The position numbers and the translations under genes were made by a program. Positions 25,742-49,785 of a stretch of DNA of 64,000 nucleotides are shown here, in pieces. The notes under the pieces are model-generated. The model worked only from the letters and a program-made list of their open reading frames with translations, was not told where the DNA came from and did not search any database. This DNA is from Phormidesmis sp. (GTDB lineage Bacteria > Cyanobacteriota > Cyanobacteriia > Leptolyngbyales > Leptolyngbyaceae), in the NCBI GenBank assembly GCA_965248535.1, contig CBDFJR010000002.1, forward strand, positions 1,696,001 through 1,760,000. The letters run 5' to 3'. How positions within the stretch are numbered: the first letter of the stretch is position 1; each line of letters opens with the position of its first letter.

Positions 25742-26102
25742 AAAAGTATTGATGGTATGCGTGGGAGTGGATGCACGATCGAGCACACAGGGATTAGTTC
25801 AACCAATTAATATAGCGTTGGATGGTGTGCTGAGTAAATCTCACTTTTAGCAGATGCTCACGCCTATTATCTAATTTGTCGGAAATGCCCCGCTATAGCG
25901 TTACTCAGCTTGGCGGCAGGATGGAAGGCAGGGCCGCGATGAACTGACCCCTTGAACGATAGATTTTCTATCTTTCCAAATCTGGAAAGGTCGTTGCACG
26001 ATCGGGAATCGATAACTCGATAGATTCCTCTACACTAAAGTCATTCCTGATGAGGCTGTGAGGTTAAGCAGTGGCGGTTGTTGTGTTGGAGCGGTAATCA
26101 AT

Positions 26103-26774
26103 ATGAGTCAAGGCACAACCCATTTAACAAAGCAGACGTTTTTAGTTGTAGATGATCATGAGGCAATTTTGGAGGGCACAGTTCCGGCCCTTCAGCGAGC
26201 CTATCCCACCACTGAGGTGCTGACCGCGCCAGATATTCAGATGGCTCAACTTCAGATGGGGTCGCGTCTGCCTGTGCTGATTGTGTTGGACTTGAGCCTA
26301 CCCGAAAAGCCTCATGCACCCGCCAGTTCTGAAGTTGGGCTACACTTTCTCAAGACCTTGATCGAAGGACAGTCTGCGCCCAATATTTTGGTGCTGAGTA
26401 CCAACGTTCAGCCGCTTGTGCAGCTAAAGCCCATGATTAATGCCTATGAAGGAGGCTTTGCCGCGATGGATAAATCGCTTCCGATTCGAGAGATGTTGAG
26501 GTTAGTAGATTTTGCGCTGCGAGGCTCAATCTATCTACCGCCACAGCTACGATCGCGCACAGAGTTTGATCCCAAATGGTTAGAAGTGTTGACCTTAAAG
26601 TTTCAAGAAGGTTTGACCGATAAAGCGATCGCGCAACGAATGCAGGTCAGCGATCGCACAATTCGGAACTATTGGATTCGGCTGCAAGATGCTCTCGGTG
26701 TTTATGATGAATCAGGGAAAGAACTCAGAATCCAGATTGAGCTTGCCGCCAGAAAAATCGGATTGATTTATTAG
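26103..26774 (+). CDS. NarL/LuxR-type response regulator
   Basis: VVDDH, VLDLSLP receiver; GLTDKAIAQRMQVSDRTIRNY HTH. Confidence 0.9.
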   Translation: MSQGTTHLTKQTFLVVDDHEAILEGTVPALQRAYPTTEVLTAPDIQMAQLQMGSRLPVLIVLDLSLPEKPHAPASSEVGLHFLKTLIEGQSAPNILVLSTNVQPLVQLKPMINAYEGGFAAMDKSLPIREMLRLVDFALRGSIYLPPQLRSRTEFDPKWLEVLTLKFQEGLTDKAIAQRMQVSDRTIRNYWIRLQDALGVYDESGKELRIQIELAARKIGLIY

Positions 26775-26781
26775 CAACACT

Positions 26782-28713
26782 TTGAACCAGCAATATTGGA
26801 GGCGACTGAACCAGCAAGCAAAGATTTGGCGATCGGGAGCATTGCCCGGATTTGTGGTGATTGCCTGCGTGGTGATTGCCCGTCTGACTGGCTCTCTACA
26901 GGTTTTAGAGTGGATGGCCTTTGATCAAGTGCTGCGATCGCGCCCGGTTGAGTCGGTAGAATCGCAAATTGTGATCGTCGGGATTAATGAGAACGACATC
27001 AAAACGATTGGCAAATATCCCATTCCCGATCGAGAGTTAGCAGCCCTACTGCAAAGGCTGCAAAGCTATCACCCAAGAGCGATCGGGTTAGATATCTTTC
27101 GCGATGTGACAACCGGATCAAGTCGGGCAGAACTAGCCGAAGTCTTCAGCAACAGTTCCAATCTAGTCGGCATTGAAATGGCGTTAAGTCCAAATATTGC
27201 ACTGACGGTAAAACCGCCGCCAGAGTTGCCGCCTGAGCGGATTGGTCTTGCAGATGTTGTCATTGACCCAGATGGTAAATTGCGGCGCAGTTTGTTAGCA
27301 AGCAAAGTCGATGATAAAACAAAGTATTCACTTTCATTGTTGTTGGCAGCGATGTATCTGCGATTAGCGCAAAGCACAACTCCGAAGGAACCGCAAGGAA
27401 TCGCCCTTCAGCAGGGAAGTCGCGCCAGTGATCCGATTCAGTTTGGGTCGGTGGTGTTGCCTCGGTTTCACAAGAACACGGGAAGCTATGTCAACGCGAA
27501 AGCAGGGGGAAATCAAGTCTTACTAAATTTTCGCAGTCATTCGCAACCGTTTACGATCGTCTCGTTGACCGACGTTTTAACCCATCAAGTGCAGCCAAGT
27601 TTGATCCGCGATCGCATTGTTCTGATTGGCATGACGGCTGCCAGCGTCAATGATACCTTTATGACATCTGCAACAAAAGGCACATTGTTATCGAACGATT
27701 TAAATGACTCAGAACAATATCAATTTCTCTATGGAGTCGAGTATCAAGCCCATGCAACTAGTCAACTGATCAATGCGGTTCTCAATCATAGACCTCTGAT
27801 CCGCACTTGGCTAGAAGGTTGGGAATATGTTTGGATTCTAACTTGGGGATTGTTTGGCATTGCGTTGGGATTGATGCTGCAATCTCCCTGGAAAACACTT
27901 TTAAGTCTTGCGGTTAGCAGTAGCTGCCTGATATTAGTGTGCAATGGCTTGATGATTTTGGGCTGGTGGATTCCGCTTGTTCCTGCCTTGCTGACCTTGG
28001 GTGCGGCTGGGTTGACGACTTCACTCTTTGATCGTGACTCTAGAGTTTTATTAGAGCAGCGTAGTCTAACGTTAAAATGCACCTATGACGCGGTTCACAA
28101 TGGGCCCTTGCAAACACTTGCAGCTATTCTGAGAAGTCTGGATGAAACGCCGTTGCGATCGCAGTTGGAATCGCTAAATCAGGAGTTGCGATCGGTTTAT
28201 GAATCGATGAAACAAGAGTTACTGTTCGGTGAAAATCGCTATATTTATACCCCGATTCCTGAACTGTTGTATCAAATCTATGAAGATACCTTGCAGCGAA
28301 ATCTGCCAGGGTTCTCCTCGATCAAGACTTATGTTCCCCCTGATTTCAACTCGCTTAAAGACTGCTCTTTGACTCCAGAACAAAAACAAGGACTGTGTAT
28401 CTTTCTGCAAGAAGCCCTTTGTAATGTGGGTAAACACGCGATCGCGGCCAGTCGTCTGGATGTTGTCTGTACTCACCAACATGATGAATGGAGCTTACAA
28501 ATTCTCGATAACGGTGTTCAGGTCAAATCTAGCCAGTCTCGTAGTGGACGAGGGACTGATCAGGCGAGAGAATTGGCGCGATCGCTGGGTGGAAAGTTTG
28601 ATCGGCGATCGCGGTCACCGCAAGGAGTTGCGTGTGAAGTGACGTGGCGAGATTCTAAACCGTGGCGGCAACGCCTTTTTCACCTATTTGGGTACTGGTC
28701 AGCGTCTCCTTAA
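26782..28713 (+). CDS. CHASE2 sensor with HisKA_3-type kinase module
   Basis: IVIVGINENDI, AIGLDIFRD, DPDGKLRR, YGVEYQAH CHASE2; three TM helices; VHNGPLQ H-box, EALCNVGKHA, DNG, GRGT. Confidence 0.9.
   Translation: MNQQYWRRLNQQAKIWRSGALPGFVVIACVVIARLTGSLQVLEWMAFDQVLRSRPVESVESQIVIVGINENDIKTIGKYPIPDRELAALLQRLQSYHPRAIGLDIFRDVTTGSSRAELAEVFSNSSNLVGIEMALSPNIALTVKPPPELPPERIGLADVVIDPDGKLRRSLLASKVDDKTKYSLSLLLAAMYLRLAQSTTPKEPQGIALQQGSRASDPIQFGSVVLPRFHKNTGSYVNAKAGGNQVLLNFRSHSQPFTIVSLTDVLTHQVQPSLIRDRIVLIGMTAASVNDTFMTSATKGTLLSNDLNDSEQYQFLYGVEYQAHATSQLINAVLNHRPLIRTWLEGWEYVWILTWGLFGIALGLMLQSPWKTLLSLAVSSSCLILVCNGLMILGWWIPLVPALLTLGAAGLTTSLFDRDSRVLLEQRSLTLKCTYDAVHNGPLQTLAAILRSLDETPLRSQLESLNQELRSVYESMKQELLFGENRYIYTPIPELLYQIYEDTLQRNLPGFSSIKTYVPPDFNSLKDCSLTPEQKQGLCIFLQEALCNVGKHAIAASRLDVVCTHQHDEWSLQILDNGVQVKSSQSRSGRGTDQARELARSLGGKFDRRSRSPQGVACEVTWRDSKPWRQRLFHLFGYWSASP
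27360..27394 (+). mobile_element. 27-nt short dispersed element inserted in-frame in a HIP1 site
   Basis: GCGAT[TAGCGCAAAGCACAACTCCGAAGGAAC]CGC; 31/35 identical to 37292-37326. Confidence 0.75.
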
Positions 28714-28751
28714 CGCGGTTTAATGGAGTATTCCTCTATTTGCCCACAGCC

Positions 28752-29513
28752 ATGAATCATTTAACGATTAGCGCTAGGCGCAACTCTAAAGGAGCCGCAG
28801 CTTGCCAAAAACAGACAGCAACTAGACTAATATCAGGCATCTTGTTGGCAATGTCGCTGATGCCAATTGCAGCATTAGCAGACGATGATAAAGCGCCTCC
28901 TAGTGGCAGATCTGCTGGAGGTAGGGGCTGTGGAACCACCACACAAATTGCTCAATCTAATGTGCCTAGTTTGATCTTACTTTCTCCTCAAGAATCTTCT
29001 AAACAAGCGGTTTCGACTCGCCCCACTTTTGCCTGGTTTGTGCGCGATGCTGCCCCGGTATTAATGGAATTTAGACTTTATGCACAGGACGCAAACAACC
29101 GCTATCAATTGGTTAAAGAGGTTAAAGACGATCAGTTCAAAACATCTCCTGGCATTATGGTGTTGTCACTGGCTCAAACGACTCCTGAGCTTGCGATCGG
29201 GCGATATCGCTGGCAGGTGGTGTTGATCTGCGATCGCAGCCATCCCTCTGGCAATCTCTTTGCTGAATCTGAGCTAGAAGTGGTTCCATTGCCTGCTGAT
29301 TTGAAGACTCGGTTAGAAAAGACCCACGATCGCGCCTCTCAAGCATCGCTCTATGCTCAAGCAGATTTCTGGTATGACGCGCTGGGAACTGCGATCGGTT
29401 CATCTAATACTGGGCTGAAAGATCCACAATTGTCTCTTCTCAACAAAATGATGCTGAACAACACGGAGCAGCAGTTATTACAAAATAGTGCGATTCATCC
29501 GATACAACGGTAG
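28752..29513 (+). CDS. DUF928 domain protein
   Basis: GGRGC, STRPTFAWF, YRWQVVLIC, YAQADFWYDAL. Confidence 0.9.
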   Translation: MNHLTISARRNSKGAAACQKQTATRLISGILLAMSLMPIAALADDDKAPPSGRSAGGRGCGTTTQIAQSNVPSLILLSPQESSKQAVSTRPTFAWFVRDAAPVLMEFRLYAQDANNRYQLVKEVKDDQFKTSPGIMVLSLAQTTPELAIGRYRWQVVLICDRSHPSGNLFAESELEVVPLPADLKTRLEKTHDRASQASLYAQADFWYDALGTAIGSSNTGLKDPQLSLLNKMMLNNTEQQLLQNSAIHPIQR

Positions 29514-29617
29514 TGTCATACCAATTTCAAAAATGACTGCAATGCCCATGATTCAACAACCGCTCGAACTAAGAATGTGAGCCACTCCTAAGCTCTAACA
29601 ATCTTGCCATCATTGCA

Positions 29618-29962
29618 CTACCCCGCTGGTTCTTCGGGTAATAGTGGTGCGATTATTGCCAATAATCTAGGAATATTATCTTGAGTTACGTCCCAGACAA
29701 CATCAAAGTCAATTCGATCGTATTGATGGATGATGATGTCTCGCATTCCGGCGATATCTTTCCAGGGAATTTCAGGATGTTGGTTTCGATAGTGACTAGA
29801 TAATCGTTTTGTTGCCTCTCCCATAATTTCAATCTGATATAAGATTGCAGAATGGCGCATCACGTCTGTTTCAAGCTCAGATCGGTTTAGACCTTGAGTA
29901 AAAGTCAGAACACGCTGCCCCGCAAGAAAAATGTCCATTACAGATGCCTTATCTCTGGACAT
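29618..29962 (-). CDS. HepT-like (DUF86/HEPN) ribonuclease toxin
   Basis: IMGEATK, IPWKDIAGMRDIIIHQY (RX4HXY). Confidence 0.92.
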   Translation of the reverse strand: MSRDKASVMDIFLAGQRVLTFTQGLNRSELETDVMRHSAILYQIEIMGEATKRLSSHYRNQHPEIPWKDIAGMRDIIIHQYDRIDFDVVWDVTQDNIPRLLAIIAPLLPEEPAG

Positions 29963-30305
29963 AGATTAACCTCGCCGTCCCTAGAATTTCTTTTCGGCGA
30001 ATCCAGTTTTCGCTCTGCCCGATCGATTTTTTTGTGAGCAAGTCTACGCTTCGCATAAACAACGCTGCCAATTCTCGCTTCATTCTGACCAGTTCTAGTA
30101 ATCCACAGACTGCATCAGGATCAACTTGCACCATGACATCGATATCGCTATCGGGGCGAAAATCATCCCGCAGCACAGAGCCAAATAGATAGAATTCCTG
30201 AACGCTCCAACGCTGACAGAATTGAGCAATCTCTGCTTGGGGCAGTTCGATCGCAATTGAGTCAGACAATAACTGAAATCCTGCAACTTCAACTTTTTTC
30301 ATCAC
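29949..30305 (-). CDS. MNT nucleotidyltransferase antitoxin (MntA-like)
   Basis: LFGSVLRDDFRPDSDIDV; overlaps the HEPN gene. Confidence 0.92.
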   Translation of the reverse strand: MMKKVEVAGFQLLSDSIAIELPQAEIAQFCQRWSVQEFYLFGSVLRDDFRPDSDIDVMVQVDPDAVCGLLELVRMKRELAALFMRSVDLLTKKSIGQSENWIRRKEILGTARLIYVQR

Positions 30306-30370
30306 AGTCTTAATGAGGTCAATCAGCGATTCTCAACGTTTCTCAATTTTAACGAACTTGTGGAGTTTTC

Positions 30371-30535
30371 GACTCACTTACGCGATCGCGCCTCTCAATC
30401 ATTCCTCTAGAATCAGACAAATTTTTGGTATGACGCGCTGGGAACTGCGATCGATACAGCACTGAGCAATCGTTATTGCACGACAGTATGATTCATTGTC
30501 TGCAACAATGATGTTATATCTATTGCAACAATGAA
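30371..30535 (+). pseudogene. Degenerate duplicate of the DUF928 gene 3' end
   Basis: 28-bp exact match 30426-30453 = 29370-29397; similarity continues to and past the stop codon. Confidence 0.8.
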
Positions 30536-30596
30536 TACATATAGTTAGGGAGCCTTTCCCAAACGGGAATACTGATGACTCCCTAACCCCAACTTC

Positions 30597-30968
30597 CTAG
30601 AGTTGAATCGTAGTTTTGTTGTGCAACTCCTCCACTTGAATTAAGGAACCCTCACCCAGAACAATGTTGAACTTCATTAAAGAGCGTTCAATTTGATAAC
30701 CGGGCAACACTCGAACAACTTGGTACTCTGTGGTCAAATCACTGGTGCCATCCCATTTGAGAAAGGCCAGTTGATTAGACGCAATCTCACTCAGTTCTGA
30801 GACGAACTCTTCAATGCGATCGCCAACATTCGGAAGAATGCCAGACAGTACAAAAAGATAACGCTCTTGCAAATCTAATCTCACACTGACCCGATAACGT
30901 TTCTCCGTTGAGCATCGCAACTCAACGGTGAACGAAATCGAGCTAGGCACGATCGTCCTAACTGCCAT
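30597..30968 (-). CDS. Hypothetical protein
   Basis: 123-aa ORF with GAGAGG RBS. Confidence 0.6.
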   Translation of the reverse strand: MAVRTIVPSSISFTVELRCSTEKRYRVSVRLDLQERYLFVLSGILPNVGDRIEEFVSELSEIASNQLAFLKWDGTSDLTTEYQVVRVLPGYQIERSLMKFNIVLGEGSLIQVEELHNKTTIQL

Positions 30969-30985
30969 GGTTTTTGTCCTCTCGG

Positions 30986-31105
30986 TTAATTAAAAGAGGA
31001 CAAAAACACGGATCTCTCAGACATTGGGTTGGGGGGAAATCTGTATGCAGGATCTTGATTCCAGCCTTTCAAGATCCCATAGCAAAGCCGACGGTGTACA
31101 ATCAT
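30986..31105 (-). CDS. Putative 39-aa leader peptide (uORF)
   Basis: AGGAGG + 5 nt + ATG; MIVHRRLCYG...FLSSFN*; stop lies in the loop of an SD-sequestering hairpin. Confidence 0.4.
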   Translation of the reverse strand: MIVHRRLCYGILKGWNQDPAYRFPPNPMSERSVFLSSFN

Positions 31106-31327
31106 GAACGCCTCCTGAGTTACTTGCGCTAACTAGGGATGGAAGTCCTCGGAGTCTGATCTGGTAAATCAGGCTTCGGGGCATAACTCCATCACTGCGG
31201 TGTATTGTACAAGAGTTTTTTGTTTTTTGGAAGGCTGAGTTTTTTGGCAGGAGCGATCGTGGTTTGGTTCCGTCTGCTCTAAGCAAGAAGTTACATCTTA
31301 ATAAATCCACAATCCTAAGAAGGTTAG

Positions 31328-32239
31328 TTAAGCTAGCGATCGCTGGTCAATCTTCGTCTCGTTGCCAGGCACCAATTCAATCGTGCGGTAGCCCAAAGCT
31401 GCTAGCAAATCGGTTTCTGGCAGCTTCACAGGAGCGGGCTTTTCGCCTTTGCCGGGTGTGGGCAACGGGTAAGCAGTAGAGGCAGCCGTCAAAAAACGGA
31501 TATTGCCTTCGGTGTGTTGAATGACTTGATGGATATGTCCACTCAACACCGTCACTGACGAAAAGCGGGACAACAACGACAGCGCCTTAGCTGAATCTCC
31601 GGTTGCCCAACCCCACTTTGGATATAGATCATAAAGGGGGATATGGGTAAACACCACGATCGGGGTCTCTCGTTTTTGGGCAGTCAAATCTTTTTCTAGC
31701 AAGTCTAATTGCGCTTGACCTAGCTCCCCTTTTCCGGTTTCACCAAAATCTAGGACATTTGTGAGGGAGACAAAATGCACTCCGCTCTGATCCCAACGCT
31801 GCAAGCCTTCTTTCACGTCTTTTTGGCTGAACATTTCGGAATAAACTTTGCCACGATCGCCGATCGTGTCATGTTCTCCAGGCAATGTAAACAACGGAAC
31901 TTTCAACTGAGACAAGATTTGTTTTGCCTGATCAAACTCTTCTGGCTTAGACAGATGGCTGATATCTCCAGTGTGAACAACAAAGGCAGGCGGTGTCGGA
32001 AGTGCATTGATGGCATGAACGGTTTTTTGGAGTGTATCGATTACGTGCTCATTAGCAGGCTTGTTGAATCCAATGTGCGTATCACTGATCTGCACGAAGG
32101 ATAAGGGTGTCGCATTCTGGGATTTCTGGTTTGTCGAGTCTCCGACTTGGCAGGAAGTTAGTAAGCCATTTTCCCCAACGGCCCACAGAATTCCTAACCC
32201 TGTCCAACTGACGTGTTCAATAAACTTTCTGCGTTTCAT
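31328..32239 (-). CDS. Tat-exported calcineurin-like metallophosphoesterase
   Basis: KRRKFI, ISDTH, HTGD, PGEHD, FTHIP, SGHIH. Confidence 0.92.
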   Translation of the reverse strand: MKRRKFIEHVSWTGLGILWAVGENGLLTSCQVGDSTNQKSQNATPLSFVQISDTHIGFNKPANEHVIDTLQKTVHAINALPTPPAFVVHTGDISHLSKPEEFDQAKQILSQLKVPLFTLPGEHDTIGDRGKVYSEMFSQKDVKEGLQRWDQSGVHFVSLTNVLDFGETGKGELGQAQLDLLEKDLTAQKRETPIVVFTHIPLYDLYPKWGWATGDSAKALSLLSRFSSVTVLSGHIHQVIQHTEGNIRFLTAASTAYPLPTPGKGEKPAPVKLPETDLLAALGYRTIELVPGNETKIDQRSLA

Positions 32240-32670
32240 GGTGTGTTCCTCTTAGGAGTGACGGTGATTGTTCCATGCATGAAGGGATGAATCGAGCAAA
32301 TGTAGGGAAAGGTTCCGGGGGTTGTGAACGTTGATGCCCAAGTTTGGTCTGTATCCAAGGCTTTAGAATCGAAGGAACCATTCTTTGCTGTGACTGTGTG
32401 AGGTTCTTCATCTTTGTTGACAAACTGAACCGTCTCACCAACATTAAGTTTTAGGTCAGCAGGCTGATATTTGAAGTTGGCAATTTTGAGGGTTACATTG
32501 GGGTTTGCCGTATTTACATTGGGCTGCTTTAGCGGTTGATTGACTGTTGTCTTGGGTGTGTCTGTAGCGGTTGTAGCTTGTGGAGTTGAATGACTACAAG
32601 ATGACAATGATAGCAAGATCACTAGCATTGTCGATGTGATTGCCATCCAGAGATAGGTAATGTATTTCAT
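32236..32670 (-). CDS. Cupredoxin (plastocyanin/azurin family), probable lipoprotein
   Basis: EPHTV...YICSIHPFMHG type-1 Cu ligands; LSSC lipobox. Confidence 0.92.
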   Translation of the reverse strand: MKYITYLWMAITSTMLVILLSLSSCSHSTPQATTATDTPKTTVNQPLKQPNVNTANPNVTLKIANFKYQPADLKLNVGETVQFVNKDEEPHTVTAKNGSFDSKALDTDQTWASTFTTPGTFPYICSIHPFMHGTITVTPKRNTP

Positions 32671-32963
32671 GATCTTCCTCCGATGTGTTTGGTCGGATGT
32701 CGCTTAGAAAATAGCCCGGTCATACTCAGACCTGTTGCGAGTAAGCCGAGCAATCCCAGCCCATTCAGAACAGGTAAAGTTGCTGCTAGTCCAAAGATTT
32801 CAAAGGTATGAACTTTCAGCAAGAATCCAACAAACTCGTCTTGGTGGAGCCATTGATCGGCGATCGCGAGGCTAATTCCGCTAGTTGCTGTCACGAGTAG
32901 CGGCAGGCAGAGGACGATCGCTAAAAACCGATGATATTTCCGCAATGTTAGCTTCATGGGCAA
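32667..32963 (-). CDS. Small PepSY-associated TM helix protein
   Basis: RKYHR..A...PL...ATSG, LKVHT, LNGLGL. Confidence 0.75.
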   Translation of the reverse strand: MPMKLTLRKYHRFLAIVLCLPLLVTATSGISLAIADQWLHQDEFVGFLLKVHTFEIFGLAATLPVLNGLGLLGLLATGLSMTGLFSKRHPTKHIGGRS

Positions 32964-33081
32964 TCTCCAAAAATGGGGTGATATCTCAAAAAACTGTTGA
33001 AAGAAGTGGTTCAGCCAGCGCGCTCTGAGCGTGTTCTAGAGACATCACTGGCTGAGGAATTCGTCTATCTTCATTCCTGAA

Positions 33082-33105
33082 GACGATTGGACTGCGACTT
33101 TGGAT
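33082..33105 (-). promoter_or_regulatory. ECF sigma promoter ATCC-N16-CGTC
   Basis: Same motif and spacing at 33732-33755 (-) and 33849-33872 (+). Confidence 0.75.
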
Positions 33106-33139
33106 TTAAAGCTGCTAAATGCCTCAATAGACACGAAGG

Positions 33140-41640: not shown

Positions 41641-41642
41641 CG

Positions 41643-42409: not shown

Positions 42410-42766
42410 ATGTCTACAGTTTCTAAGCAATCCTTTGGAATGAAATTTGTTCCATTGGTCATCCTGTCACTGACTATCTTTTGCCCCAGTGTTCTAGCAG
42501 AGACGTTTTCTAAGTGTGAACGGGTGACTGGCGATGCAGGCCGATGGGAAGACAGCCAGTCTCCCTCTGGGAGGTTAGATGAAATGTGCCGAACCAACCA
42601 ACACATTTATCAGGGCCAAAAAGGAACAATGGTGTTATCGAATATCAATTCTTCCGACTGTGGTGCTGCCATTTCGTATGCGAAGGAACAGGAGAGTTGG
42701 CATGGTGATTGGTTCCTTTGGAGCCATATCACATGTACCAACGGAATGGAGATCCTCATCAAGTAA
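42410..42766 (+). CDS. Small secreted Cys-containing hypothetical protein
   Basis: Signal peptide ending VLA; AGAGA RBS. Confidence 0.7.
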   Translation: MSTVSKQSFGMKFVPLVILSLTIFCPSVLAETFSKCERVTGDAGRWEDSQSPSGRLDEMCRTNQHIYQGQKGTMVLSNINSSDCGAAISYAKEQESWHGDWFLWSHITCTNGMEILIK

Positions 42767-42982
42767 AAGTTGCGAGTATCGCGCATAGCATATCCCAATT
42801 GCAGAAACCTTTTTGCTGGCGATTCCTTCGGCATTGAAAACCCGATACAGAGGTCGCCAAAGCCGATGGATGTTGGAAGCTATGCTTCAGACTAACCGAT
42901 AAAATTCGCGATCGTGCTGGGTTGGCAAATTCATCTAGCCAGTAACCGATATCCAAATCTCAAACAAACAGCAAGGAGAACG

Positions 42983-43282
42983 ATGATGAATGTAAAACGT
43001 GCCCTAAGAGTGGTGCCTGTTACGATCGGGTTGTCCCTAGCAGCCCTCTCCCCCTGTTACGCTGCTCGGATTTACAATGATACGAACGCCGGGATCTATG
43101 TGGGGGGCAATACTGGAGGGTTTGGTACTTAGTACTCGGCTATAGTGAGACCGAGACAAAAGAGCGGCAGCCTGGATTGGACTACCGTTGCTGAAATCTA
43201 TGTCTATGGGAACAATAAGACTTTGTGTCATCTTGAATTTGGCCCTCATGCCCAAATTCAAGAAGAATTGAGCACTCAATGA
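42983..43282 (+). pseudogene. Secreted hypothetical protein with an internal amber stop (43130-43132)
   Basis: AAGGAG RBS and signal peptide; the frame stays open for 49 more codons after TAG. Confidence 0.55.
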
Positions 43283-43400
43283 AAATCGGCTTAAGCATCG
43301 CTAGTGGCAATTGCATCAGTTTCCAACTCTGGCATCGATTAACTGAGTGTAGCGAGGCAAGCTTGATGAGCACTGGGGTTTGAGTACGATCGCTCATAGC

Positions 43401-43544
43401 TGTAGGTTGGCTAAGTCTCCGAAACCCAACAATACTGAGGATTCTGCTACATCACAGCTCTCTTTTCACTGTCGAAACTTTAAGGATTGAAACCCCGATG
43501 TCTAGCTTATGGGCGTTGGATTTCATGCTTCAACTTAACCTACA
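43401..43544. repeat. REPIN-like inverted repeat pair (GTAGGTTGG...GAAACCCAAC / GTTGGATTTC...AACCTAC)
   Basis: Inverted ends TGTAGGTT / AACCTACA with internal complementary segments. Confidence 0.65.
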
Positions 43545-43621
43545 AGATCCGCGATTCACTGAAACTTATCTAATCAGTCAACTGACAGCCAAAGTTCGAT
43601 TTCTACATTAAAGAGAAAACG

Positions 43622-43999
43622 ATGAAAACACTACTGACGCGATCGACGCTACTACTTAGCTTGATGACCTGTGCTTCCGCCTCTCTCGCCTTTCCTGCCT
43701 TGTCCCAGACTGCTGTCCATCCACTGTTTGACTTAACGTGCGAGCAGGGGTATCACGCTGGTGTGCTACAGGACTCCCATTCCGGCGAATTTCTTTACCG
43801 TTCTAAAGGACCCAAGGGTGGATTGGGCTTGCGTGGAGGAACTAGAGTGAGTATAAAAGGAGCGGAAGTGTATAAATTTCAGAATGGTGCTTATGAATAC
43901 CAGGTAGTTTATGGTATGGGCAATAACAGTAAGCAGGGAATTTTAGGGGTGTATAAAGACGGTCGCTCTATCATGAATCTCCATTGTACACATCCTTAA
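43622..43999 (+). CDS. Small secreted hypothetical protein
   Basis: Signal peptide, YKFQNGAYEY, two mature Cys. Confidence 0.75.
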   Translation: MKTLLTRSTLLLSLMTCASASLAFPALSQTAVHPLFDLTCEQGYHAGVLQDSHSGEFLYRSKGPKGGLGLRGGTRVSIKGAEVYKFQNGAYEYQVVYGMGNNSKQGILGVYKDGRSIMNLHCTHP

Positions 44000-44216
44000 G
44001 CGATCTCTGCATTGCTGATAGGACTGTTGGCGTTGAGGAAGCCGAAAATTATCTCTGATACTTCTACACGCAATTTGCTTGCACGACTTTGTTCCAAACT
44101 ACTAAGGCTGAATTCTGGAGACACCCGCCCGAAAGTAAAGCTTTTACCTTTGTCCGCTTTTCTCCTGTGTGTCCCTACTTTGCTTGCCATTGCAATCCAT
44201 ACTTTAGTTAAAACTC

Positions 44217-44588
44217 ATGAAGATTTCTGTTAAACCTTTTGTTTGGGCGATCGCATCTTTGTCCTTCCTCGGTTTTGCGACTCAGAGTTTAGCGGACAAG
44301 CCAATTTATGTCGGCAAAGCTTCGACTGGTGAACCCGTCTACTTTAATGGGGCGCGTTTCCAATGCGGCGACCTTCCACGGACAGACGAATGCTGGTCGC
44401 GCACTCCAATGATCAGCTACAAAATTGGAAAAGATAACGTGACGGCGATCGGCGACTGCAAAAAGCGGGTGTTCAAGACAGTCACACTGGGCGACAAGAC
44501 TGTAGCTCAGAATATGCGACCCCAATCTGCTGCACTATGGCAGGTACTAAATAGAAGCTGCCACAGTGCTAAGTACAGCCAGCATTGA
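44217..44588 (+). CDS. Small secreted hypothetical protein
   Basis: Signal peptide ending SLA, four Cys, PQS.A....L...C tail. Confidence 0.75.
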   Translation: MKISVKPFVWAIASLSFLGFATQSLADKPIYVGKASTGEPVYFNGARFQCGDLPRTDECWSRTPMISYKIGKDNVTAIGDCKKRVFKTVTLGDKTVAQNMRPQSAALWQVLNRSCHSAKYSQH

Positions 44589-44689
44589 GATCTATTTCCG
44601 CAGGTTTCAATACAAAACGTTCCATCATGAGACAAAAAAGGCGCATCAGCAAACAATCTGAGAATATTTAGAACTCCAAATTGATAGAC

Positions 44690-44811
44690 TAGACCTCCTG
44701 CACGAATCCGGGAAAGCCCCCTAAATTCCCCATTTATGGGAGACTTTGAACTCAGAAACTTGGCTTAAAGTCCCCCAGCATAAGGGATTTATGAGGCGTT
44801 TCAGAAAGGTC
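44690..44811. mobile_element. Degenerate MITE-like cyanobacterial repeat
   Basis: AGACCTCCTGCA...AGAAAGGTC ends; internal CCCCCTAAAT/GACTTT...AAAGTCCCCC/GGATTTA inverted segments. Confidence 0.5.
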
Positions 44812-44902
44812 GCTACCTACCGATTCATCCTTGGATTCAGCAACGCCCAAAACTCTTCTAATCTTTGAGTAGTTCCTTCAGAGTTGTGTTTTGCCAATTG
44901 CT

Positions 44903-44966
44903 TTCCAAACGTGGAAGGTGATTTTCCGCAGATGTCGATGTATGGCTGGAAGAACAATTCTAATCT
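44903..44966 (+). promoter_or_regulatory. Conserved promoter with TTCCA-N4-TGGAA operator
   Basis: TTCCAAACGTGGAAggtgattTTCCGCAGATGTCG ... TAATCT at +58. Confidence 0.75.
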
Positions 44967-45002
44967 ATAGATAAAACTCATAGAATTCCAAAGGGGGCTT
45001 AA

Positions 45003-45230
45003 ATGCAAGGCAACTCAACCCATTTTATTGGCTTTACTCAGCCTAACTCAATTCACCCAGCGGCTGCAAACCCAACCGCTAATGTAACGACACTACTTGT
45101 AATTATTTTTCCTGCCGTTGTGATCTTGAGTGTCGTGAGTTATCGATACTATTGTGTAGCTAGACTGCGCCAACAAATTGCTACTTTAGAAAAGCTCTGG
45201 CAGCTTACCTCCAGTCAAAAATTATTCTAA
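45003..45230 (+). CDS. Small single-TM hypothetical protein
   Basis: AGGGGG RBS, TM helix, LRQQIATLEKLWQL tail. Confidence 0.7.
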   Translation: MQGNSTHFIGFTQPNSIHPAAANPTANVTTLLVIIFPAVVILSVVSYRYYCVARLRQQIATLEKLWQLTSSQKLF

Positions 45231-45887
45231 GACTATAGAGATACCTACTAATTGCTTTACTCCAGTCTCACGCTGGGAGTCGGGCAATGGTTGATCTCGC
45301 TAGTTCCAATCTGCTTTCCTTGCGACGCGGGGCGATGTCCTTGTTAGCCTCCTTTCTTAGGATAAAAGAAGGGAAGCCAGATTAGAAGTCTCTCATGATT
45401 GCTAGGTTAATGAAATTTTTCTCTCAAAACTCACGATCGCGATCGCCAACATAGAGATTCTTTCCACAAATGCGAAGAACAAACCCTCATTCATTAAAAC
45501 TGCGATCGCGTTGATCAAAAATGAAGATCGGAAATACGGAAAATACAATCTCAACCTCATACACATAGACTTAAATACGAAAAATGCAGCTTCGTTGACC
45601 AAAATAAGGTCGTCTGCATAGGAAATGCGATCGCGTTTATTGAAGCGGCGATCGCATTCTCTATAAATAAGTCCTGATTTCCATAGTTTCCCCATTCATT
45701 TTTAAACTGAACGTAAATGCTTCAGGTAAATTGTGTATAAACACCCTGCTTTTTTTGCTCTTTTCCGTATTACAGACAAACTTTAATCAATCTTTATCTA
45801 AGCTTTTGCAAACAACCGTCAAAAATACGACTCTCCTGGCAAGGATGATTTAGCTATGGTAGAAAAAATCAATCAGGAGACCCTATC

Positions 45888-46337
45888 ATGACCCTTCAAA
45901 CTCGCGGATCTGCTGCGATTAACAAAGCTCAACGCCGTCTTGCCAGTCTCAAATCCATCGACGAAAACCTGGATTTAGGCCATGGACTAACAACTGGTGC
46001 TTATACTCAAATGATCGAAGCGGTTCGCAGCGCTGTCGAAGCTCACAACACCTTTGTCTCCCAGATCGACGAGTCTCGCCGCAATGTAGCTGCCCTAGAA
46101 AAAGAACTGGCTGATCTCACTGCCCGGATGTTGAGCGGAGTTTCCACTAAATACGGCAGAAACAGCAATGAGTATCGCAAAGCAGGAGGTAGCCTTCGCA
46201 AAAGCAAGTCCGCGGCTTCTCAGTCCACTTTTCCGTTAACTTCAGAGCCTCTTCAACCTGCTCCTCTAGAGGTGGCACTTTCAACTAACGGGAAGAGCAA
46301 AAGCAAAACTCAAGCAGATAAAACTAACGGACTATAA
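45888..46337 (+). CDS. Conserved cyanobacterial coiled-coil hypothetical protein
   Basis: AQRRLASLKSID..LDLG, KYGRNSNEYRKAGG; AGGAG RBS. Confidence 0.8.
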   Translation: MTLQTRGSAAINKAQRRLASLKSIDENLDLGHGLTTGAYTQMIEAVRSAVEAHNTFVSQIDESRRNVAALEKELADLTARMLSGVSTKYGRNSNEYRKAGGSLRKSKSAASQSTFPLTSEPLQPAPLEVALSTNGKSKSKTQADKTNGL

Positions 46338-46583
46338 AGAGCGATCGCTCCTATTTCACAACACTTGAGTCTTAAATTATAACCAGGCTTTCAACTCTAC
46401 GATCGCTAAAAAATTCAACAGATTTTGACTTCTCACAGTTGCAACATAACTTATCTTACGATCGCGGAAAATAGATGATATGGTTCCTGTCAGAACTTCG
46501 TATTGCAATCTGAAATCAGCCCCATAAAAACAGATGCAAAGACAGTTTCATCATTAGATGCATCTAACCTTTAGGAGAAGAGT

Positions 46584-47018
46584 ATGGATAGTGACACAGC
46601 CGACCAGTTGAGCAATAAGTTCGAGTCTGCACTCTCCGAAATTCTGCCTGACCTAACTCAATTACTCCAGCAATATCAAGTGTCAGAAGTTTTAACAATT
46701 GAGCTAAAAATCCTGATGGGTTGCCACCCAACTCCTAATGGTGGTCATGTATGTAACTGGCAGCCTGTTATTGAACCCACGCCTGAAGTACCTGGTTTCG
46801 GTGAAATAGGTGAGCCAGATCCTGAAACTGCACAACAGTTTTGGATAGATATTGCATCAAAAATGTTTGCAACGATGACTCTTTTAAGTCAATCTATCCA
46901 GCAAGCAAAAGAAAAATTTAAAGCTCATATCATTATTGATCCAGCCGCAATGGACAATATCCGCCTGTCTTGTAAGTTTGTTGACGGTGTTCTTCTGTGC
47001 ACTGTTCAGCCACACTGA
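46584..47018 (+). CDS. Hypothetical protein
   Basis: AGGAG RBS; two CxnC segments. Confidence 0.65.
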   Translation: MDSDTADQLSNKFESALSEILPDLTQLLQQYQVSEVLTIELKILMGCHPTPNGGHVCNWQPVIEPTPEVPGFGEIGEPDPETAQQFWIDIASKMFATMTLLSQSIQQAKEKFKAHIIIDPAAMDNIRLSCKFVDGVLLCTVQPH

Positions 47019-47159
47019 TGAACCGTTAAGCGACTGATATCTAGATGATGACTTGCAAAAGAATCAGAGGTCTGATGTAAGCTAATATAATGCCAACATG
47101 GTGTTTGCGCGATATTGGCAACATCTGTGTCGCAGTGACGCTTTGAGTGAGTCGATTTT

Positions 47160-49358
47160 GTGATTCAAAAAAAGATCAGCAAACACTGGAAACTAAAACT
47201 ACTGAGTCCTTTAGCGATCGCGGGTGCTATTGCTATTGCTAAACACCCCGCCTATGCTCAAGTAACACCTGATCATACGTTAGGGGTTGAGCGGTCGATC
47301 GTGAATTCAAGCATAAATAATGGTTCTTTCCGTCAGCAAATCGAAGGGGGAGCAATTCGCGGGATTAATCTGTTTCATAGCTTTCGCGACTTCAACATTG
47401 CGGCAGGACAAAGCCTCTATTTTCAAAACCCGATCGGCATCAAGAACATTATCAGTCGAGTAACTGGCAGCAGTCCGTCCGATATTGCAGGAACACTAGG
47501 GGTATCAGGCGGCAGTGCCAACCTGTTTCTGCTTAATTCAAATGGCATTATCTTTGGAGCCAATGCGCGTCTGGATGTTAGCGGCTCATTTGTGGCAACA
47601 ACAGCGTCTGCACTTCAGTTTGGCACTCAGGGCTTTTTTAGTAGTTCTGCACCTGATTCCCCTCCTTTGCTAACCGTGAATCCGTCTGCTTTTTTGTTCA
47701 ACCAAGTGGCTCGTGCAGCGGTGGTCAATCGTTCAACAACCCCATTAGAATCGGGTAGACAAGGGCTGCAAGTGCCGGATGGTCATAGTGTGCTGCTGTT
47801 AGGGGGCGATGTCAATTTGGCAGGAGGAGGTGTGAATGCGGCTGGGGGGCGGGTAGAACTGGGAGCAGTTGCAGGCACAGGCACAGTAGGGCTGAGTCTG
47901 GATAACAACGATTTGCGCTTGAGTTTTCCTGCTGCGCTCGATCGAGCCGATATTTTTCTCACCAATGGCGCTACGGTCAATACCAGCGGGGAAGGGGGCG
48001 GGTCGATCCAGATTTGGGGCAGGCGCATCTCCATAAATAGCGGTTCTCAAGTTGCGGCTTTTACCCAAGGAGCGAAACCCGGAGGCAGCTTAACTGTGAA
48101 TGCCTCTGAGTCTTTAGAAGTAATTGGATTCGCTCCATTTGGGAATTTATCGACCGTGAGCTTCGGGAATGGTAATGCAGGCGATCTCACGATCGAGACT
48201 CGAAGACTGAGTATTCAAGATGGAGCGTCAGTCTCTTCCGAGACACGCGGCAATGGTTCAGGTGGGAAGTTGAGCGTGAATGCCTCCGAGTCTGTTGAGG
48301 TTGCAGGTCGAGATAGCACTGGTAGCTCTAGCTTCTTGGGTAGTTCTACAAGCAGTGCAGGACAAGCAGGAAATCTCACTATCAACACAAAAAGGCTAAT
48401 CATCCGGGATGGAGGAGCACTATCTACTGAGGCGTTTCCCGTATTTGAAAATGGACAACAGGTTTTTCCGGCATCCGGAGAAGGGGGTAATCTGACGATC
48501 AATGCTTCTGACTCTGTAGAGTTGATTAGAGAAGGATTCATCTTTACAGACACTCAAAGCACTGGAAATGCAGGCAACCTAACGATCAATACGGGTAGCC
48601 TACTGGCTCAAGATGGTAGTGCGATCGGCGCACAAAGCCGAGGTTCAGGAAATGCAGGCAATATCACAGTGCGGGCACGCTCGATTGAGTTGAAGAATCA
48701 ATCGCTAATCTATGCTCAAACCACAGCAAGTCAGGGTGGCAACATCACACTGCAAGTCCAGGATCTGCTGCTGATGCGACAGGGTAGCTTTATTTCCACC
48801 ACCGCTGGAACGGATCAAGCAGGCGGGGATGGCGGCAACATTACCTTTGATGGCAAGTTCATTGTGGCTGTTCCTCAAGAGAACAGTGATATCACAGCCA
48901 ATGCCTTCTCAGGTCGCGGGGGCAACATTCGCATTACCGCTCAAGGCATTTTCGGAATTGAGCCTCGTTTTAAAGAGACTTCCTTCAGTGACATTACCGC
49001 CAGTTCTGCGTTTGGTGTCAGTGGCACGATTACGCTGAATACGCCGGATGTCGATCCGAGTCGAGGCACTGCGGCACTGCCCAGCGGGTTAGTCGATACC
49101 AATGCAATCATTGCGAATAGTTGTGTGGCCCGTCGCCGTCATCAAGGTCGCTTTGTGATTACGGGAACAGGTGGTTTAGCACCTCAGCCTGACGATCTGG
49201 CAAATGCTTCGTTTCCAACCTATGAGTTAGTTCCTGATCCTGCAAAAGCAGAGACGACAGAGAAGGGTCGTCCGTCGCCATCTACTTCAGTCATAGAACC
49301 CGATCGTATCTATCACCTCGCAAATGGAGCGATGATTCTAGGTCGATCGTGTCATTAA
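47160..49358 (+). CDS. Filamentous haemagglutinin N-terminal (TPS) domain beta-helical protein 2
   Basis: NLFHSFRDF, NIISRVTG, GIIFGANARL, GNAG repeats, same C-terminal tail as protein 1. Confidence 0.92.
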   Translation: MIQKKISKHWKLKLLSPLAIAGAIAIAKHPAYAQVTPDHTLGVERSIVNSSINNGSFRQQIEGGAIRGINLFHSFRDFNIAAGQSLYFQNPIGIKNIISRVTGSSPSDIAGTLGVSGGSANLFLLNSNGIIFGANARLDVSGSFVATTASALQFGTQGFFSSSAPDSPPLLTVNPSAFLFNQVARAAVVNRSTTPLESGRQGLQVPDGHSVLLLGGDVNLAGGGVNAAGGRVELGAVAGTGTVGLSLDNNDLRLSFPAALDRADIFLTNGATVNTSGEGGGSIQIWGRRISINSGSQVAAFTQGAKPGGSLTVNASESLEVIGFAPFGNLSTVSFGNGNAGDLTIETRRLSIQDGASVSSETRGNGSGGKLSVNASESVEVAGRDSTGSSSFLGSSTSSAGQAGNLTINTKRLIIRDGGALSTEAFPVFENGQQVFPASGEGGNLTINASDSVELIREGFIFTDTQSTGNAGNLTINTGSLLAQDGSAIGAQSRGSGNAGNITVRARSIELKNQSLIYAQTTASQGGNITLQVQDLLLMRQGSFISTTAGTDQAGGDGGNITFDGKFIVAVPQENSDITANAFSGRGGNIRITAQGIFGIEPRFKETSFSDITASSAFGVSGTITLNTPDVDPSRGTAALPSGLVDTNAIIANSCVARRRHQGRFVITGTGGLAPQPDDLANASFPTYELVPDPAKAETTEKGRPSPSTSVIEPDRIYHLANGAMILGRSCH

Positions 49359-49368
49359 ACTAAAAGAC

Positions 49369-49454
49369 TTCCAACCTTTGCAAGAGCGCCTTCCAAACGT
49401 GGAAGGTGATTTTCCGCGTATGTCGCTGTATCCCAAGAGAAATCGCTCTAATCT
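49369..49454 (+). promoter_or_regulatory. Conserved promoter with TTCCA-N4-TGGAA operator
   Basis: TTCC boxes at 49369, 49391 and 49412; TAATCT at 49449. Confidence 0.75.
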
Positions 49455-49593
49455 AGCAGTGTAGAAGAACAGCAAGCACGCTAAACCTTTTAGCCAAAAA
49501 GAAATGACATCAGTTAATTGATTGAACTATGACCTTAGGGCAACGATCGTTGCCCTAAGCTTACCTCAACTCTAAACCGGAGAAGCCTGCACC

Positions 49594-49785
49594 ATGAAAC
49601 TTATTTACCGTGCGCTCATTCTAGAATCTGTTCCCCGTCCAGTTGCGCCCTATCGCAAACCGCAAGCTTTGCATTGGCGCTTTCATGCTCCTGGTGAAAC
49701 CTATGGTGAAGTTCAGAAATCATCAACTTCTTATCGTTACCCACGGGCGCTAAACTGGCGCTTTCGGATGGCTTCGGAGGTGTAG
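49594..49785 (+). CDS. Small DUF4278-like protein
   Basis: MKLIYR start; internal repeat YRKPQALHWRF / YRYPRALNWRF; GGAG RBS. Confidence 0.65.
   Translation: MKLIYRALILESVPRPVAPYRKPQALHWRFHAPGETYGEVQKSSTSYRYPRALNWRFRMASEV

What the first reader, a model, noticed from the sequence alone, without database searches (positions are those of the whole stretch)
25974..49785. Candidate undescribed signalling island: CHASE2 kinase + NarL RR + DUF928 + secreted CHAT protease + two FHA-like proteins + small secreted proteins
Seen: RR-CHASE2 kinase-DUF928 operon (26103-29513); signal-peptide TPR-CHAT with intact His/Cys dyad, divergent from FHA1; a run of small Cys-containing secreted proteins; FHA2. 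Known: CHAT domains are caspase-clan proteases, and HisKA_3 kinases pair with NarL RRs; I know of no defined function for the combined module. Inference: an extracytoplasmic proteolytic signalling circuit in which CHAT processes FHA or DUF928, CHASE2 senses the product, and the RR drives a local regulon (next finding). No TpsB (ShlB/FhaC) transporter is in the window.
Basis: partly seen in the sequence, partly recalled or inferred. Interest (0 to 1): 0.8.

Follow-up and report, generated by a model that had tools for sequence, protein, structure and literature searches.

The report
Surface-filament protease relay to CHASE2
This inserted stretch carries one copy of a widespread gene set, for which I found no description in print, in which a small exported protein (DUF928) is predicted to plug into a membrane sensor (CHASE2) with no known direct ligand, and an exported caspase-like protease, likely docked on a surface filament, would switch the sensor on by cutting that protein.

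Summary
The genes are real, but the system is smaller than the 24-kb block. The core is a response regulator, CHASE2 kinase, DUF928, exported TPR-CHAT protease and TpsA (FHA) filaments; both TpsB genes lie elsewhere in the genome. Around 80 related TPR-CHATs, TpsA occurs in 56 loci, DUF928 in 53 and CHASE2 in 35, also outside cyanobacteria; the small ORFs, ECF block and PIN toxin occur in 0. The block is an insertion: five congeners have 1.2-4.5 kb at this site.

New evidence: (1) a DUF928-CHASE2 model passes (0.72, best control 0.11; mark reached by 116/157 solved, 2/215 mismatched pairs), docking DUF928's N-terminal arm, whose Arg is 98% conserved; (2) DUF928 folds like MtxA; (3) the TpsA tail and the TPR domain are both missing from 28 of 28 fusion-type CHAT proteins; (4) a palindrome lies 57-58 bp before a -10-like box upstream of the regulator and at three sites behind TpsA ends.

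Best reading (0.4): the TpsA tail activates periplasmic CHAT, which cuts DUF928 at that Arg and switches on the kinase. Cleavage, input and direction are untested. Ten paper searches found no description; this scan's earlier AI notes list the module 81 times.

The parts
25860..50291 (.). Whole inserted block between cysK and the PBP/DUF4912 gene
   Evidence: Five of five congeners examined have 1.2-4.5 kb between the same flanks; three carry a type ISP restriction-modification gene there. GC 0.44-0.50 inside, 0.50-0.52 outside.
25974..25987 (.). Palindrome TTCCA-N4-TGGAA, candidate operator of the regulator; -10-like TACACT 57 bp on
   Evidence: Top genome-wide hit of a matrix trained on 9 sites of relatives; also upstream of the RR in G005 and G007, degenerate in G012; spacing. 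Binding untested.
26103..26774 (+). NarL-type response regulator (core)
   Evidence: REC and weak GerE HTH; D63 and K124 in 32 of 32 homologues; beside the kinase in 18 of 20 loci.
26782..28713 (+). CHASE2 sensor histidine kinase, NarQ/UhpB-like core (core)
   Evidence: PF05226; H439, E544, N548, D576, G578 in 34 of 34; hydrophobic runs at 18-38 and 350-411.
28752..29513 (+). Exported DUF928 protein, Ig + TPR-like fold (core)
   Evidence: PF06051; model pLDDT 77; best match MtxA 4z29, Z 8.7, rmsd 4.1, 144 aligned.
28881..28931 (+). DUF928 N-terminal arm D44-C60 with R58; predicted CHASE2-binding element and candidate cleavage site
   Evidence: Arg in 98% of 250 sequences; arm forms the interface; tandem copies of the motif in some paralogues.
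29618..30458 (-). HepT/MNT toxin-antitoxin pair followed by a diverged 76-bp copy of the DUF928 3' region (passenger)
   Evidence: Pfam; repeat D13, 84% identity.
30597..35320 (.). Metallophosphoesterase, cupredoxin, PepSY-like and 120-aa ORFs; ECF sigma and RskA (passenger block)
   Evidence: Pfam; ECF, RskA, phosphoesterase, cupredoxin and 120-aa profiles hit 0 of 80 TPR-CHAT loci and 0 of 20 kinase loci; the phosphoesterase was found in 2 of 30 relatives at E<=1e-60.
35564..38251 (-). Exported TPR-CHAT protease with H747/C806 dyad (core)
   Evidence: Pfam; N-terminal hydrophobic run 6-21; residues 534-895 match the separase protease domain 5fby, Z 24.1, rmsd 3.2, 301 aligned; TPR part matches LGN 4wnd, Z 25.8, rmsd 6.0, 326 aligned.
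38279..41137 (+). TpsA filament FHA1 with conserved two-Cys C-terminal tail from about 40910 (core)
   Evidence: PF05860, TIGR01901; 195-198-nt repeats; last ~105 aa 78% identical to FHA2.
41197..41972 (-). PIN toxin and likely antitoxin (passenger)
   Evidence: Pfam; lies between the FHA1 end and a relic FHA end.
42088..42261 (+). Relic FHA 3' end, palindrome (42198-42211) and -10-like TAATCT
   Evidence: same element follows the FHA gene in G005 and G007.
42410..44588 (+). Small Cys-containing, probably exported ORFs (42410, 43622, 44217) and a broken one (42983); variable cargo
   Evidence: No Pfam or NCBIfam family; 0 of 80 and 0 of 20 related loci; the 123-aa ORF found in 2 of 30 relatives.
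44903..47018 (+). Third palindrome (44903-44916) and ORFs of 75, 149 and 144 aa; variable cargo
   Evidence: only the 144-aa ORF recurs, in 1 of 20 kinase loci.
47160..49358 (+). TpsA filament FHA2 with the same tail from about 49122 (core)
   Evidence: PF05860; N-terminal hydrophobic run 14-27.
49391..49785 (+). Fourth palindrome (49391-49404), -10-like TAATCT and a 63-aa ORF
   Evidence: no family for the ORF.

Best explanation
This is an inserted copy of a conserved signalling cassette in which exported DUF928 is predicted to bind the kinase's CHASE2 domain through an arginine-bearing arm, the kinase likely phosphorylates the adjacent regulator, and an exported TPR-CHAT protease, likely docked on the tail of the TpsA filaments, would switch the pathway on by cutting DUF928 after that arginine. 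Steps, with my odds. (1) Shown: RR, kinase, DUF928, TPR-CHAT and TpsA are inherited together (0.9 that they work together). (2) Inferred: TpsA is exported by a TpsB encoded elsewhere and keeps its C-terminal tail in the periplasm, as Bordetella FhaB keeps its prodomain. (3) Inferred (0.6): the tail binds the TPR superhelix, so a contact or pull on the filament activates CHAT. (4) Inferred (0.4): CHAT cuts DUF928 after R58. (5) Predicted (0.75): the arm D44-C60 binds CHASE2; cutting would change how it sits there. (6) Inferred (0.9): H439 passes phosphate to D63. (7) Inferred (0.7): the regulator binds TTCCA-N4-TGGAA and activates its own operon and the small genes behind TpsA. The outside signal is not identified.
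For: Neighbourhood: 80 TPR-CHAT loci hold TpsA 56, DUF928 53, CHASE2 35, ShlB 23, and TpsA+DUF928+CHASE2 27; in the 46 loci of 18 kb or more 38, 37, 28, 14, 24. CHASE2 lies within 1.5 kb of DUF928 in 23 of 30 loci, one of them this genome's own. Complex: 0.50/0.72/0.72 against best control 0.11; mark reached by 116 of 157 solved and 2 of 215 mismatched pairs (only roughly valid, own alignments); runs share at least 33% of contacts; partner pLDDT at least 78; interface is arm residues D44-C60. No solved relative of either chain by sequence. R58 98% of 250. CHASE2 D254, in the interface, is kept in 67 of 67 DUF928-paired and 18 of 18 FecR-paired rows with a residue there. Fusions: of 28 hits to the fusion's CHAT region, 24 have TPS, 27 the His and Cys motifs, 0 the tail, 0 TPR; 64 of 68 stand-alone TpsAs have the tail. 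Tail subtype follows the CHAT tree: a 27-row clade (SH-aLRT 99) holds 14 of 15 window-type tails and 19 of 23 kinase-linked CHATs. The cyanobacterial CHAT HetF cuts after R117 and separases after Arg (PMC9457339, PMC11506125). Operator.
Against: No cleavage is shown, and CHASE2 binding alone could explain the conserved Arg; a bound arm may be shielded from a protease. Craspase CHATs cut after Met or Leu, so Arg specificity is not general. The predicted interface is on average less conserved (0.48) than the rest of CHASE2 (0.56). One of three runs scored 0.50. Of 20 kinase loci only 11 had DUF928, 9 TPR-CHAT and 5 all of DUF928, TPR-CHAT and TpsA; several were cut by contig ends, but L015, L027 and L029 had none in 20 kb. 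In Nitrospira the TpsA-ShlB-CHAT-DUF928 set has no CHASE2 hit within 10 kb, though 5 of 5 such genomes encode CHASE2. 15 of 80 CHAT loci had none of the three partners. 42 tails trained the tail profile and the operator pattern came from this window, so both counts are partly circular. The tree is the quick one, and kin share labels. Deleting mtxA gave no phenotype.
Confidence: 0.4

Rival explanations
1. CHAT processes or releases the TpsA filament; DUF928 is an uncut co-receptor of CHASE2. Sensor and filament are linked by regulation, not by a proteolytic relay.
For: Tail and TPR go together. Periplasmic proteases process the FhaB prodomain (PMC8263021). Most tails carry an Arg near the first Cys or in a GRGG motif. 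The intact arm docks in the model.
Against: In fusions CHAT replaces the tail, so the tail is not needed as a substrate there. DUF928 stays next to CHAT in Nitrospira, where CHASE2 has moved away. Tandem Arg motifs in some DUF928s fit repeated cut sites.
Confidence: 0.3
2. The DUF928 arm is a pseudo-substrate held in the CHAT active site, as securin is by separase; a signal at the TpsA tail frees intact DUF928, which then binds CHASE2.
For: Separase-like protease fold; arm only moderately ordered alone, pLDDT 62-66; DUF928 usually adjoins the CHAT gene.
Against: The His-Cys dyad is kept in 86 of 87, which asks for a real substrate; CHAT-DUF928 binding was not modelled.
Confidence: 0.15
3. The cassette is a defence or conflict alarm: the filament senses a phage or competitor and the regulator induces protective exported proteins.
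For: The only characterised periplasmic TPR-CHAT, DdvA, controls a defence island and is the top Foldseek hit. The same site holds restriction-modification genes in three congeners. Two toxin-antitoxin pairs are inside. An FHA-domain gene is among phage-resistance mutations in PMC10811720.
Against: No defence genes were noted among conserved neighbours (PADLOC not run). Known CHASE2 outputs concern biofilm and symbiosis. A hotspot collects unrelated cargo.
Confidence: 0.1
4. The whole 24-kb block, with the small ORFs and the ECF pair, is one fixed functional unit.
For: One insertion in this genome; three candidate operators precede small ORFs.
Against: These genes occur in 0 of 80 and at most 1 of 20 related loci; G005, G007 and G012 have the compact core, and G005 and G007 carry CAP-domain genes in the slot; relic duplications mark later insertions.
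Confidence: 0.05

Closest known systems
MtxA (PDB 4Z29) and its CHASE2 adenylate cyclase, magnetotactic bacteria (PMC4439547, passages read)
   Same: Exported Ig + TPR-like protein encoded before a CHASE2 receptor; only match at Z>=8 among 48,161 chains.
   Different: MtxA has an extra N-terminal domain of about 117 residues; no binding to CHASE2 reported in the passages read; no CHAT or TpsA mentioned there; mutant without phenotype.
Sinorhizobium NsrA - CyaK/CyaD1/CyaD2 (PMC13001267, passages read)
   Same: CHASE2 receptors that respond to a protein signal through an outer-membrane component.
   Different: NsrA is a beta-barrel, the output is cAMP and Clr, and no direct CHASE2 ligand or protease step is given.
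Burkholderia BiofilmReg operon: RR + LysM-FecR + CHASE2 kinase (PMC5192318, passages read)
   Same: Regulator, exported partner and CHASE2 kinase in one operon; FecR partners of CHASE2 carry [VI]RGT in 21 of 23 loci.
   Different: Partner is FecR, not DUF928; CreB-type regulator; no CHAT or TpsA.
Myxococcus DdvA-DdvS (PMC11506125, passages read)
   Same: Periplasmic TPR-CHAT with His-Cys dyad in signal transduction; top Foldseek hit 8rw5, E 7.5e-15, TM 0.27.
   Different: DdvA is a membrane anti-sigma proposed to cut itself; here CHAT is a separate exported protein and the output is a two-component pair.
HetF-PatU3 of Anabaena (PMC9457339) and separase
   Same: CHAT-clan proteases that cut after Arg to control a regulator; shared fold with the separase protease domain.
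   Different: HetF is a divisome protein acting on PatU3; no export, TpsA or CHASE2.
EACC2-caspase-CHASE2 with ECF sigma and DUF1822 (PMC8195603, passages read)
   Same: Matches the two sister modules on contig C5, which also carry a DUF928 or a similarly placed exported gene.
   Different: Caspase is fused to the receptor; the paper's main text has 0 hits for DUF928 or hemagglutinin; the window's receptor is a kinase.
Bordetella FhaB/FhaC (PMC8263021, abstract and passages read)
   Same: TpsA with TPS domain and repeats; C-terminal part kept in the periplasm and handled by proteases.
   Different: Much larger adhesin; no dedicated CHAT and no link to an inner-membrane receptor.

Membership tests
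CHAT / separase-like protease | His-Cys dyad | tested here: met
   H747 and C806 present; 86 of 87 homologues.
CHAT / separase-like protease | Caspase-hemoglobinase fold behind a TPR region | tested here: met
   5fby Z 24.1, rmsd 3.2, 301 aligned; Csx29 and DdvA top Foldseek hits.
CHAT / separase-like protease | Acidic S1 pocket for a P1 Arg | tested here: inconclusive
   D840 in 85 of 87 and D635 in 86 of 87; equivalence to the separase pocket is recalled, and the structure paper was not available.
CHAT / separase-like protease | Proteolytic activity and substrate | not testable with these tools
   Needs an assay.
TpsA (type Vb passenger) | N-terminal TPS domain | tested here: met
   PF05860 and TIGR01901 above cut-off for both.
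TpsA (type Vb passenger) | Signal peptide | tested here: inconclusive
   Hydrophobic run found for FHA2, not for FHA1 at my threshold; no predictor was run.
TpsA (type Vb passenger) | Cognate TpsB | tested here: inconclusive
   None in the window; two on C5; ShlB in 23 of 80 related loci and directly before the RR in G007.
CdiA / polymorphic toxin | Variable C-terminal toxin domain with immunity gene | tested here: not met
   No toxin family hit; the two tails are 78% identical and conserved across phyla.
NarL-type two-component pair | Phospho-His with N and G boxes; REC Asp/Lys with LuxR-type HTH | tested here: met
   H439, N548, D576, G578 in 34 of 34; D63, K124 in 32 of 32; HTH hit is below cut-off.
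NarL-type two-component pair | Pfam HisKA_3 domain | tested here: inconclusive
   No hit at E<=0.01; weak UhpB/NarQ/NarX/LiaS hits over the ATPase part only.
MtxA family | Ig + TPR-like two-domain fold, gene beside a CHASE2 receptor | tested here: met
   Z 8.7, rmsd 4.1, 144 aligned, 11% identity; adjacent gene.
MtxA family | Extra N-terminal domain (residues 25-141) | tested here: not met
   DUF928 has only a 17-residue arm before the Ig domain.
DdvA-type anti-sigma | Cytoplasmic anti-sigma domain and membrane helix before TPR-CHAT | tested here: not met
   The protein starts with a hydrophobic run at 6-21, then TPRs.
EACC2-caspase-CHASE2 system | Caspase fused before CHASE2, with ECF sigma and DUF1822 | tested here: not met
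   The window's CHASE2 protein is a kinase and no DUF1822 is in the window; met by the sister loci L001 and L003.

The most novel reading that the evidence does not exclude
A new class of trans-envelope signalling: two-partner-secreted filaments act as contact or force antennas whose periplasmic tail switches on a separase-like protease; the protease releases an Arg-ended peptide from DUF928; and CHASE2 domains in general are receptors for Arg-Gly protein motifs, supplied by DUF928 in these cassettes and by FecR-type partners in others. One input module would then drive kinases, cyclases or caspase-sigma outputs across several phyla.
Probability: 0.3. Interest if true: 0.9.

Novelty: new variant of a known kind. 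Interest (0 to 1): 0.68.

Why it matters
CHASE2 is a widespread sensor; PMC5192318 calls its signals unknown, and the 2026 rhizobial paper names an upstream protein signal but no direct ligand in the passages read. This locus gives a direct test: a 17-residue arm, one Arg (R58) and one Asp (D254). It would also give DUF928 (7,879 clusters at 50% identity) a function, and the many exported CHAT proteases a substrate and an activator. The kinase subtype is handy because it has a candidate operator to use as a reporter. If the tail model holds, TpsA proteins would be signal antennas as well as adhesins and toxins.

Tried and rejected
Metagenome scan with DUF928 alone gave 1 locus. The DUF928 alignment was too variable for the genome scan, so the TPR-CHAT alignment was used. 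A search for longer DUF928 fusions found 1 weak hit among 7,999 scored candidates, which is weak evidence. The ShlB-TPR-CHAT 'fusion' in L137 spans an unknown base and was dropped. Sequence search of solved structures found no CHAT, CHASE2 or DUF928 relative. The ESM Atlas gave only unnamed clusters for the 123-aa ORF (top 0.90); the 125-aa ORF was not searched. No Foldseek result was obtained for the DUF928 model, only VIA-align. The careful tree did not finish. CHAT-tail and CHAT-DUF928 complexes were not modelled (one job). The idea that the arm binds the most conserved face of CHASE2 was not supported on average. The FecR parallel is a lead only: 8 Arg-type FecRs had no CHASE2 within 1.5 kb and 2 of 23 rows were misparsed. 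A CDI reading was rejected. The only tRNA is at 62748, outside the block; no integrase family was seen among the 35 ORFs scanned. Paper searches without a description of the module; two searches looked for neighbours. No supplements were read; those of PMC8195603 and subscription papers could hold such neighbourhoods.
Full report
OBSERVATION. A PIN pair follows FHA1. Three intact small ORFs and one broken one look exported and contain Cys; the others do not fit that description. The genome has 3 DUF928, 7 CHASE2, 12 CHAT, 6 TPS and 2 ShlB matches; neither ShlB is in the window.

THE BLOCK IS AN INSERTION. In 5 of 5 congeners examined, cysK and the PBP/DUF4912 gene are 1.2-4.5 kb apart, against 24.4 kb here. 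Three of them carry a type ISP restriction-modification gene at the site. Diverged copies of the DUF928 3' region and of an FHA 3' end flank the toxin-antitoxin pairs, so the block was rearranged after assembly.

CORE AND PASSENGERS. I fetched 20 full-length or near-full-length kinase hits from 11 of the 30 relatives searched. The regulator is adjacent in 18, DUF928 in 11, TpsA in 10, TPR-CHAT in 9 and ShlB in 4; 5 have DUF928, TPR-CHAT and TpsA together. Several are cut by contig ends, but three have no partner in 20 kb. G005, G007 and G012 have the compact order RR-kinase-DUF928, then TPR-CHAT back to back with TpsA (G007 over two contigs). Of the best 80 of 596 TPR-CHAT loci, 56 hold TpsA, 53 DUF928, 35 CHASE2, 23 ShlB and 15 none of the first three. 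They include Nitrospira, Verrucomicrobiota, Geoanaerobacter and Entotheonella. Profiles of the window's small ORFs, ECF block and PIN hit none of the 80. CHASE2 is within 1.5 kb of DUF928 in 23 of 30 phylum-wide loci. In a quick tree of 89 CHAT domains a 27-row clade (SH-aLRT 99) holds 14 of 15 window-type tails and 19 of 23 kinase-linked CHATs; kin share labels, so this defines a subtype and does not prove co-evolution.

DUF928 AND CHASE2. DUF928 is predicted to be an Ig-like sandwich followed by TPR-like helices (pLDDT 77). Its best match is MtxA (Z 8.7, rmsd 4.1, 144 aligned; the only Z>=8), which is itself encoded before a CHASE2 cyclase (PMC4439547, passages). Right after the predicted signal peptide is a Pro/Gly-rich arm whose Arg (R58) is kept in 98% of 250 sequences, as well as core residues are; some paralogues repeat the motif up to five times. 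The complex of the CHASE2 domain with DUF928 scored 0.50, 0.72 and 0.72 against a best control of 0.11. The mark was reached by 116 of 157 solved and 2 of 215 mismatched pairs, counts that hold only roughly with my own alignments; runs share at least 33% of contacts and partner pLDDT is at least 78. The interface is the whole arm D44-C60. It includes CHASE2 D254 (67 of 67 DUF928-paired, 18 of 18 FecR-paired rows with a residue) and D121 (57 of 60, not kept in FecR-paired rows), numbered as; but interface residues are on average less conserved than the rest (0.48 against 0.56). An R58-D254 contact is my inference; the output does not list it. No solved relative of either chain was found by sequence. 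FecR proteins beside CHASE2 carry [VI]RGT in 21 of 23 loci, a lead that CHASE2 may read Arg-Gly motifs.

TPR-CHAT AND THE TpsA TAIL. The protease part matches the separase protease domain (Z 24.1, rmsd 3.2, 301 aligned) and the TPR part matches LGN, solved with bound partner peptides (Z 25.8, rmsd 6.0, 326 aligned); DdvA and Csx29 head the Foldseek list. The dyad is kept in 86 of 87. Both filaments end in a two-Cys tail, 78% identical over 106 columns, with relatives outside cyanobacteria. The genome also encodes a 1516-aa TpsA-CHAT fusion. Of 28 proteins found with its CHAT region, 24 have a TPS domain, none has the tail and none has TPRs, while 64 of 68 stand-alone TpsAs have the tail (42 tails trained the profile). 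Tail plus TPR thus looks like a non-covalent substitute for the fusion. That the tail stays in the periplasm is inferred from FhaB, whose C-terminal third is retained there (PMC8263021), and from CHAT having a signal-like start but no TPS domain.

SUBSTRATE. HetF cuts PatU3 after R117 (PMC9457339); separases cut after Arg, craspases after Met or Leu (PMC11506125). An exposed, near-invariant and sometimes repeated Arg motif in the neighbouring exported protein is therefore the best candidate. DUF928 also stays beside CHAT, with its Arg, in Nitrospira, where no CHASE2 was detected within 10 kb although those genomes encode one. This step is inference, and receptor binding alone could explain the Arg.

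OUTPUT. Kinase and regulator keep their catalytic residues (34 of 34 and 32 of 32). TTCCA-N4-TGGAA occurs 9 times in 5.03 Mb, 4 of them in the block; three of the four are homologous copies. It also precedes the regulator in G005 and G007 and follows TpsA in G005, G007 and G012. A matrix from 9 sites of relatives ranks the site at 25972 first in the genome, with 3 of the top 4 in the block (the pattern came from this window). All four sites lie 57-58 bp before a -10-like hexamer, including the non-homologous RR promoter. More distant kinase loci lack this palindrome (17 of 20). The slot behind TpsA holds CAP-domain genes in G005 and G007 and small unknown ORFs here, so it reads as variable regulon cargo.

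COMPARISON. Each part has a known counterpart: MtxA, NsrA-CyaK (PMC13001267), BiofilmReg (PMC5192318), DdvA, HetF, FhaB. The sister modules on C5 match the published EACC2-caspase-CHASE2 systems (PMC8195603), whose main text does not mention DUF928 or hemagglutinin. DUF928 occurs in 1 paper of the library, which notes one CHASE2-DUF928 cluster beside WD40 genes. Searches combining CHAT, CHASE2, hemagglutinin, ShlB, FecR or TpsB found no description. All papers were seen as term-search passages, PMC8263021 also as abstract; PMC3482391, PMC10811720 and PMC5498481 added little; no supplements were read, and most subscription papers are not held. Earlier AI notes of this scan list the module 81 times in at least 52 genomes; I read them after the complex result, and they are not independent support.

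VERDICT. A real, widespread and apparently undescribed trans-envelope cassette, here in a kinase/NarL subtype, inside a patchwork insertion. DUF928-CHASE2 binding is predicted with controls; the protease relay is inferred (0.4 overall). Novelty: new variant of a known kind, with a 0.3 chance of being a new class. Interest 0.68.

Noticed in passing
L001-L002 (G000:C5:2366137-2389327): Larger sister cluster with ShlB, two TpsAs, TPR-CHAT, two DUF928s, a CHASE2 hybrid kinase and a caspase-CHASE2/DUF1822/sigma module; one TpsA and the TPR-CHAT are each split over two frames.
   Followed up: partly
L003:5843-17000 (G000:C5:761842-772836): TpsA-CHAT fusion facing a caspase-CHASE2, DUF1822 and sigma set, with a 247-aa exported-looking gene in the DUF928 position that has no DUF928 hit.
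   Followed up: partly
L001:16661-17983: A 440-aa exported CHAT with neither TPRs nor TpsA, a third architecture.
   Followed up: no
L016, L017, L018, L019, L022, L023, L024, L026, upstream of the RR: A ~240-aa kinase-like ORF with Arg where the phospho-His would be (7 of 8 by pattern); not found in this genome. Possibly a pseudokinase partner.
   Followed up: partly
G000:C5:2356684: Second-best operator hit lies before a 478-aa gene with no Pfam family near the sister cluster; it looks by eye like the sigma-type genes of these modules.
   Followed up: partly
L100, L113, L114, L125, L132: In Nitrospira the TpsA-ShlB-CHAT-DUF928 set is followed by REC-PAS, ABC-substrate-binding and HAMP-GAF kinase genes, often a TonB receptor; a possible alternative receptor.
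   Followed up: partly
L006:5874-8976: FecR-domain gene before a CHASE2 kinase, with the [VI]RGT motif.
   Followed up: partly
window 25860-50291; L220-L224: The cysK to PBP/DUF4912 gap is a variable hotspot with type ISP restriction-modification genes in three congeners.
   Followed up: yes
window 31328-35320: Metallophosphoesterase, cupredoxin, PepSY-like ORF and divergent ECF sigma/RskA pair, patchy among relatives; probably a separate module.
   Followed up: partly
window 42983-43285: Small exported-looking gene interrupted by one in-frame TAG.
   Followed up: no
window 50424-53471: 1015-aa PBP-domain protein fused through a long acidic linker to DUF4912; found in 5 of 5 congeners.
   Followed up: no
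L158:2880, 15733, 15846: In G005 the palindrome also flanks an operon of hybrid kinase-like genes that ends in ShlB.
   Followed up: no
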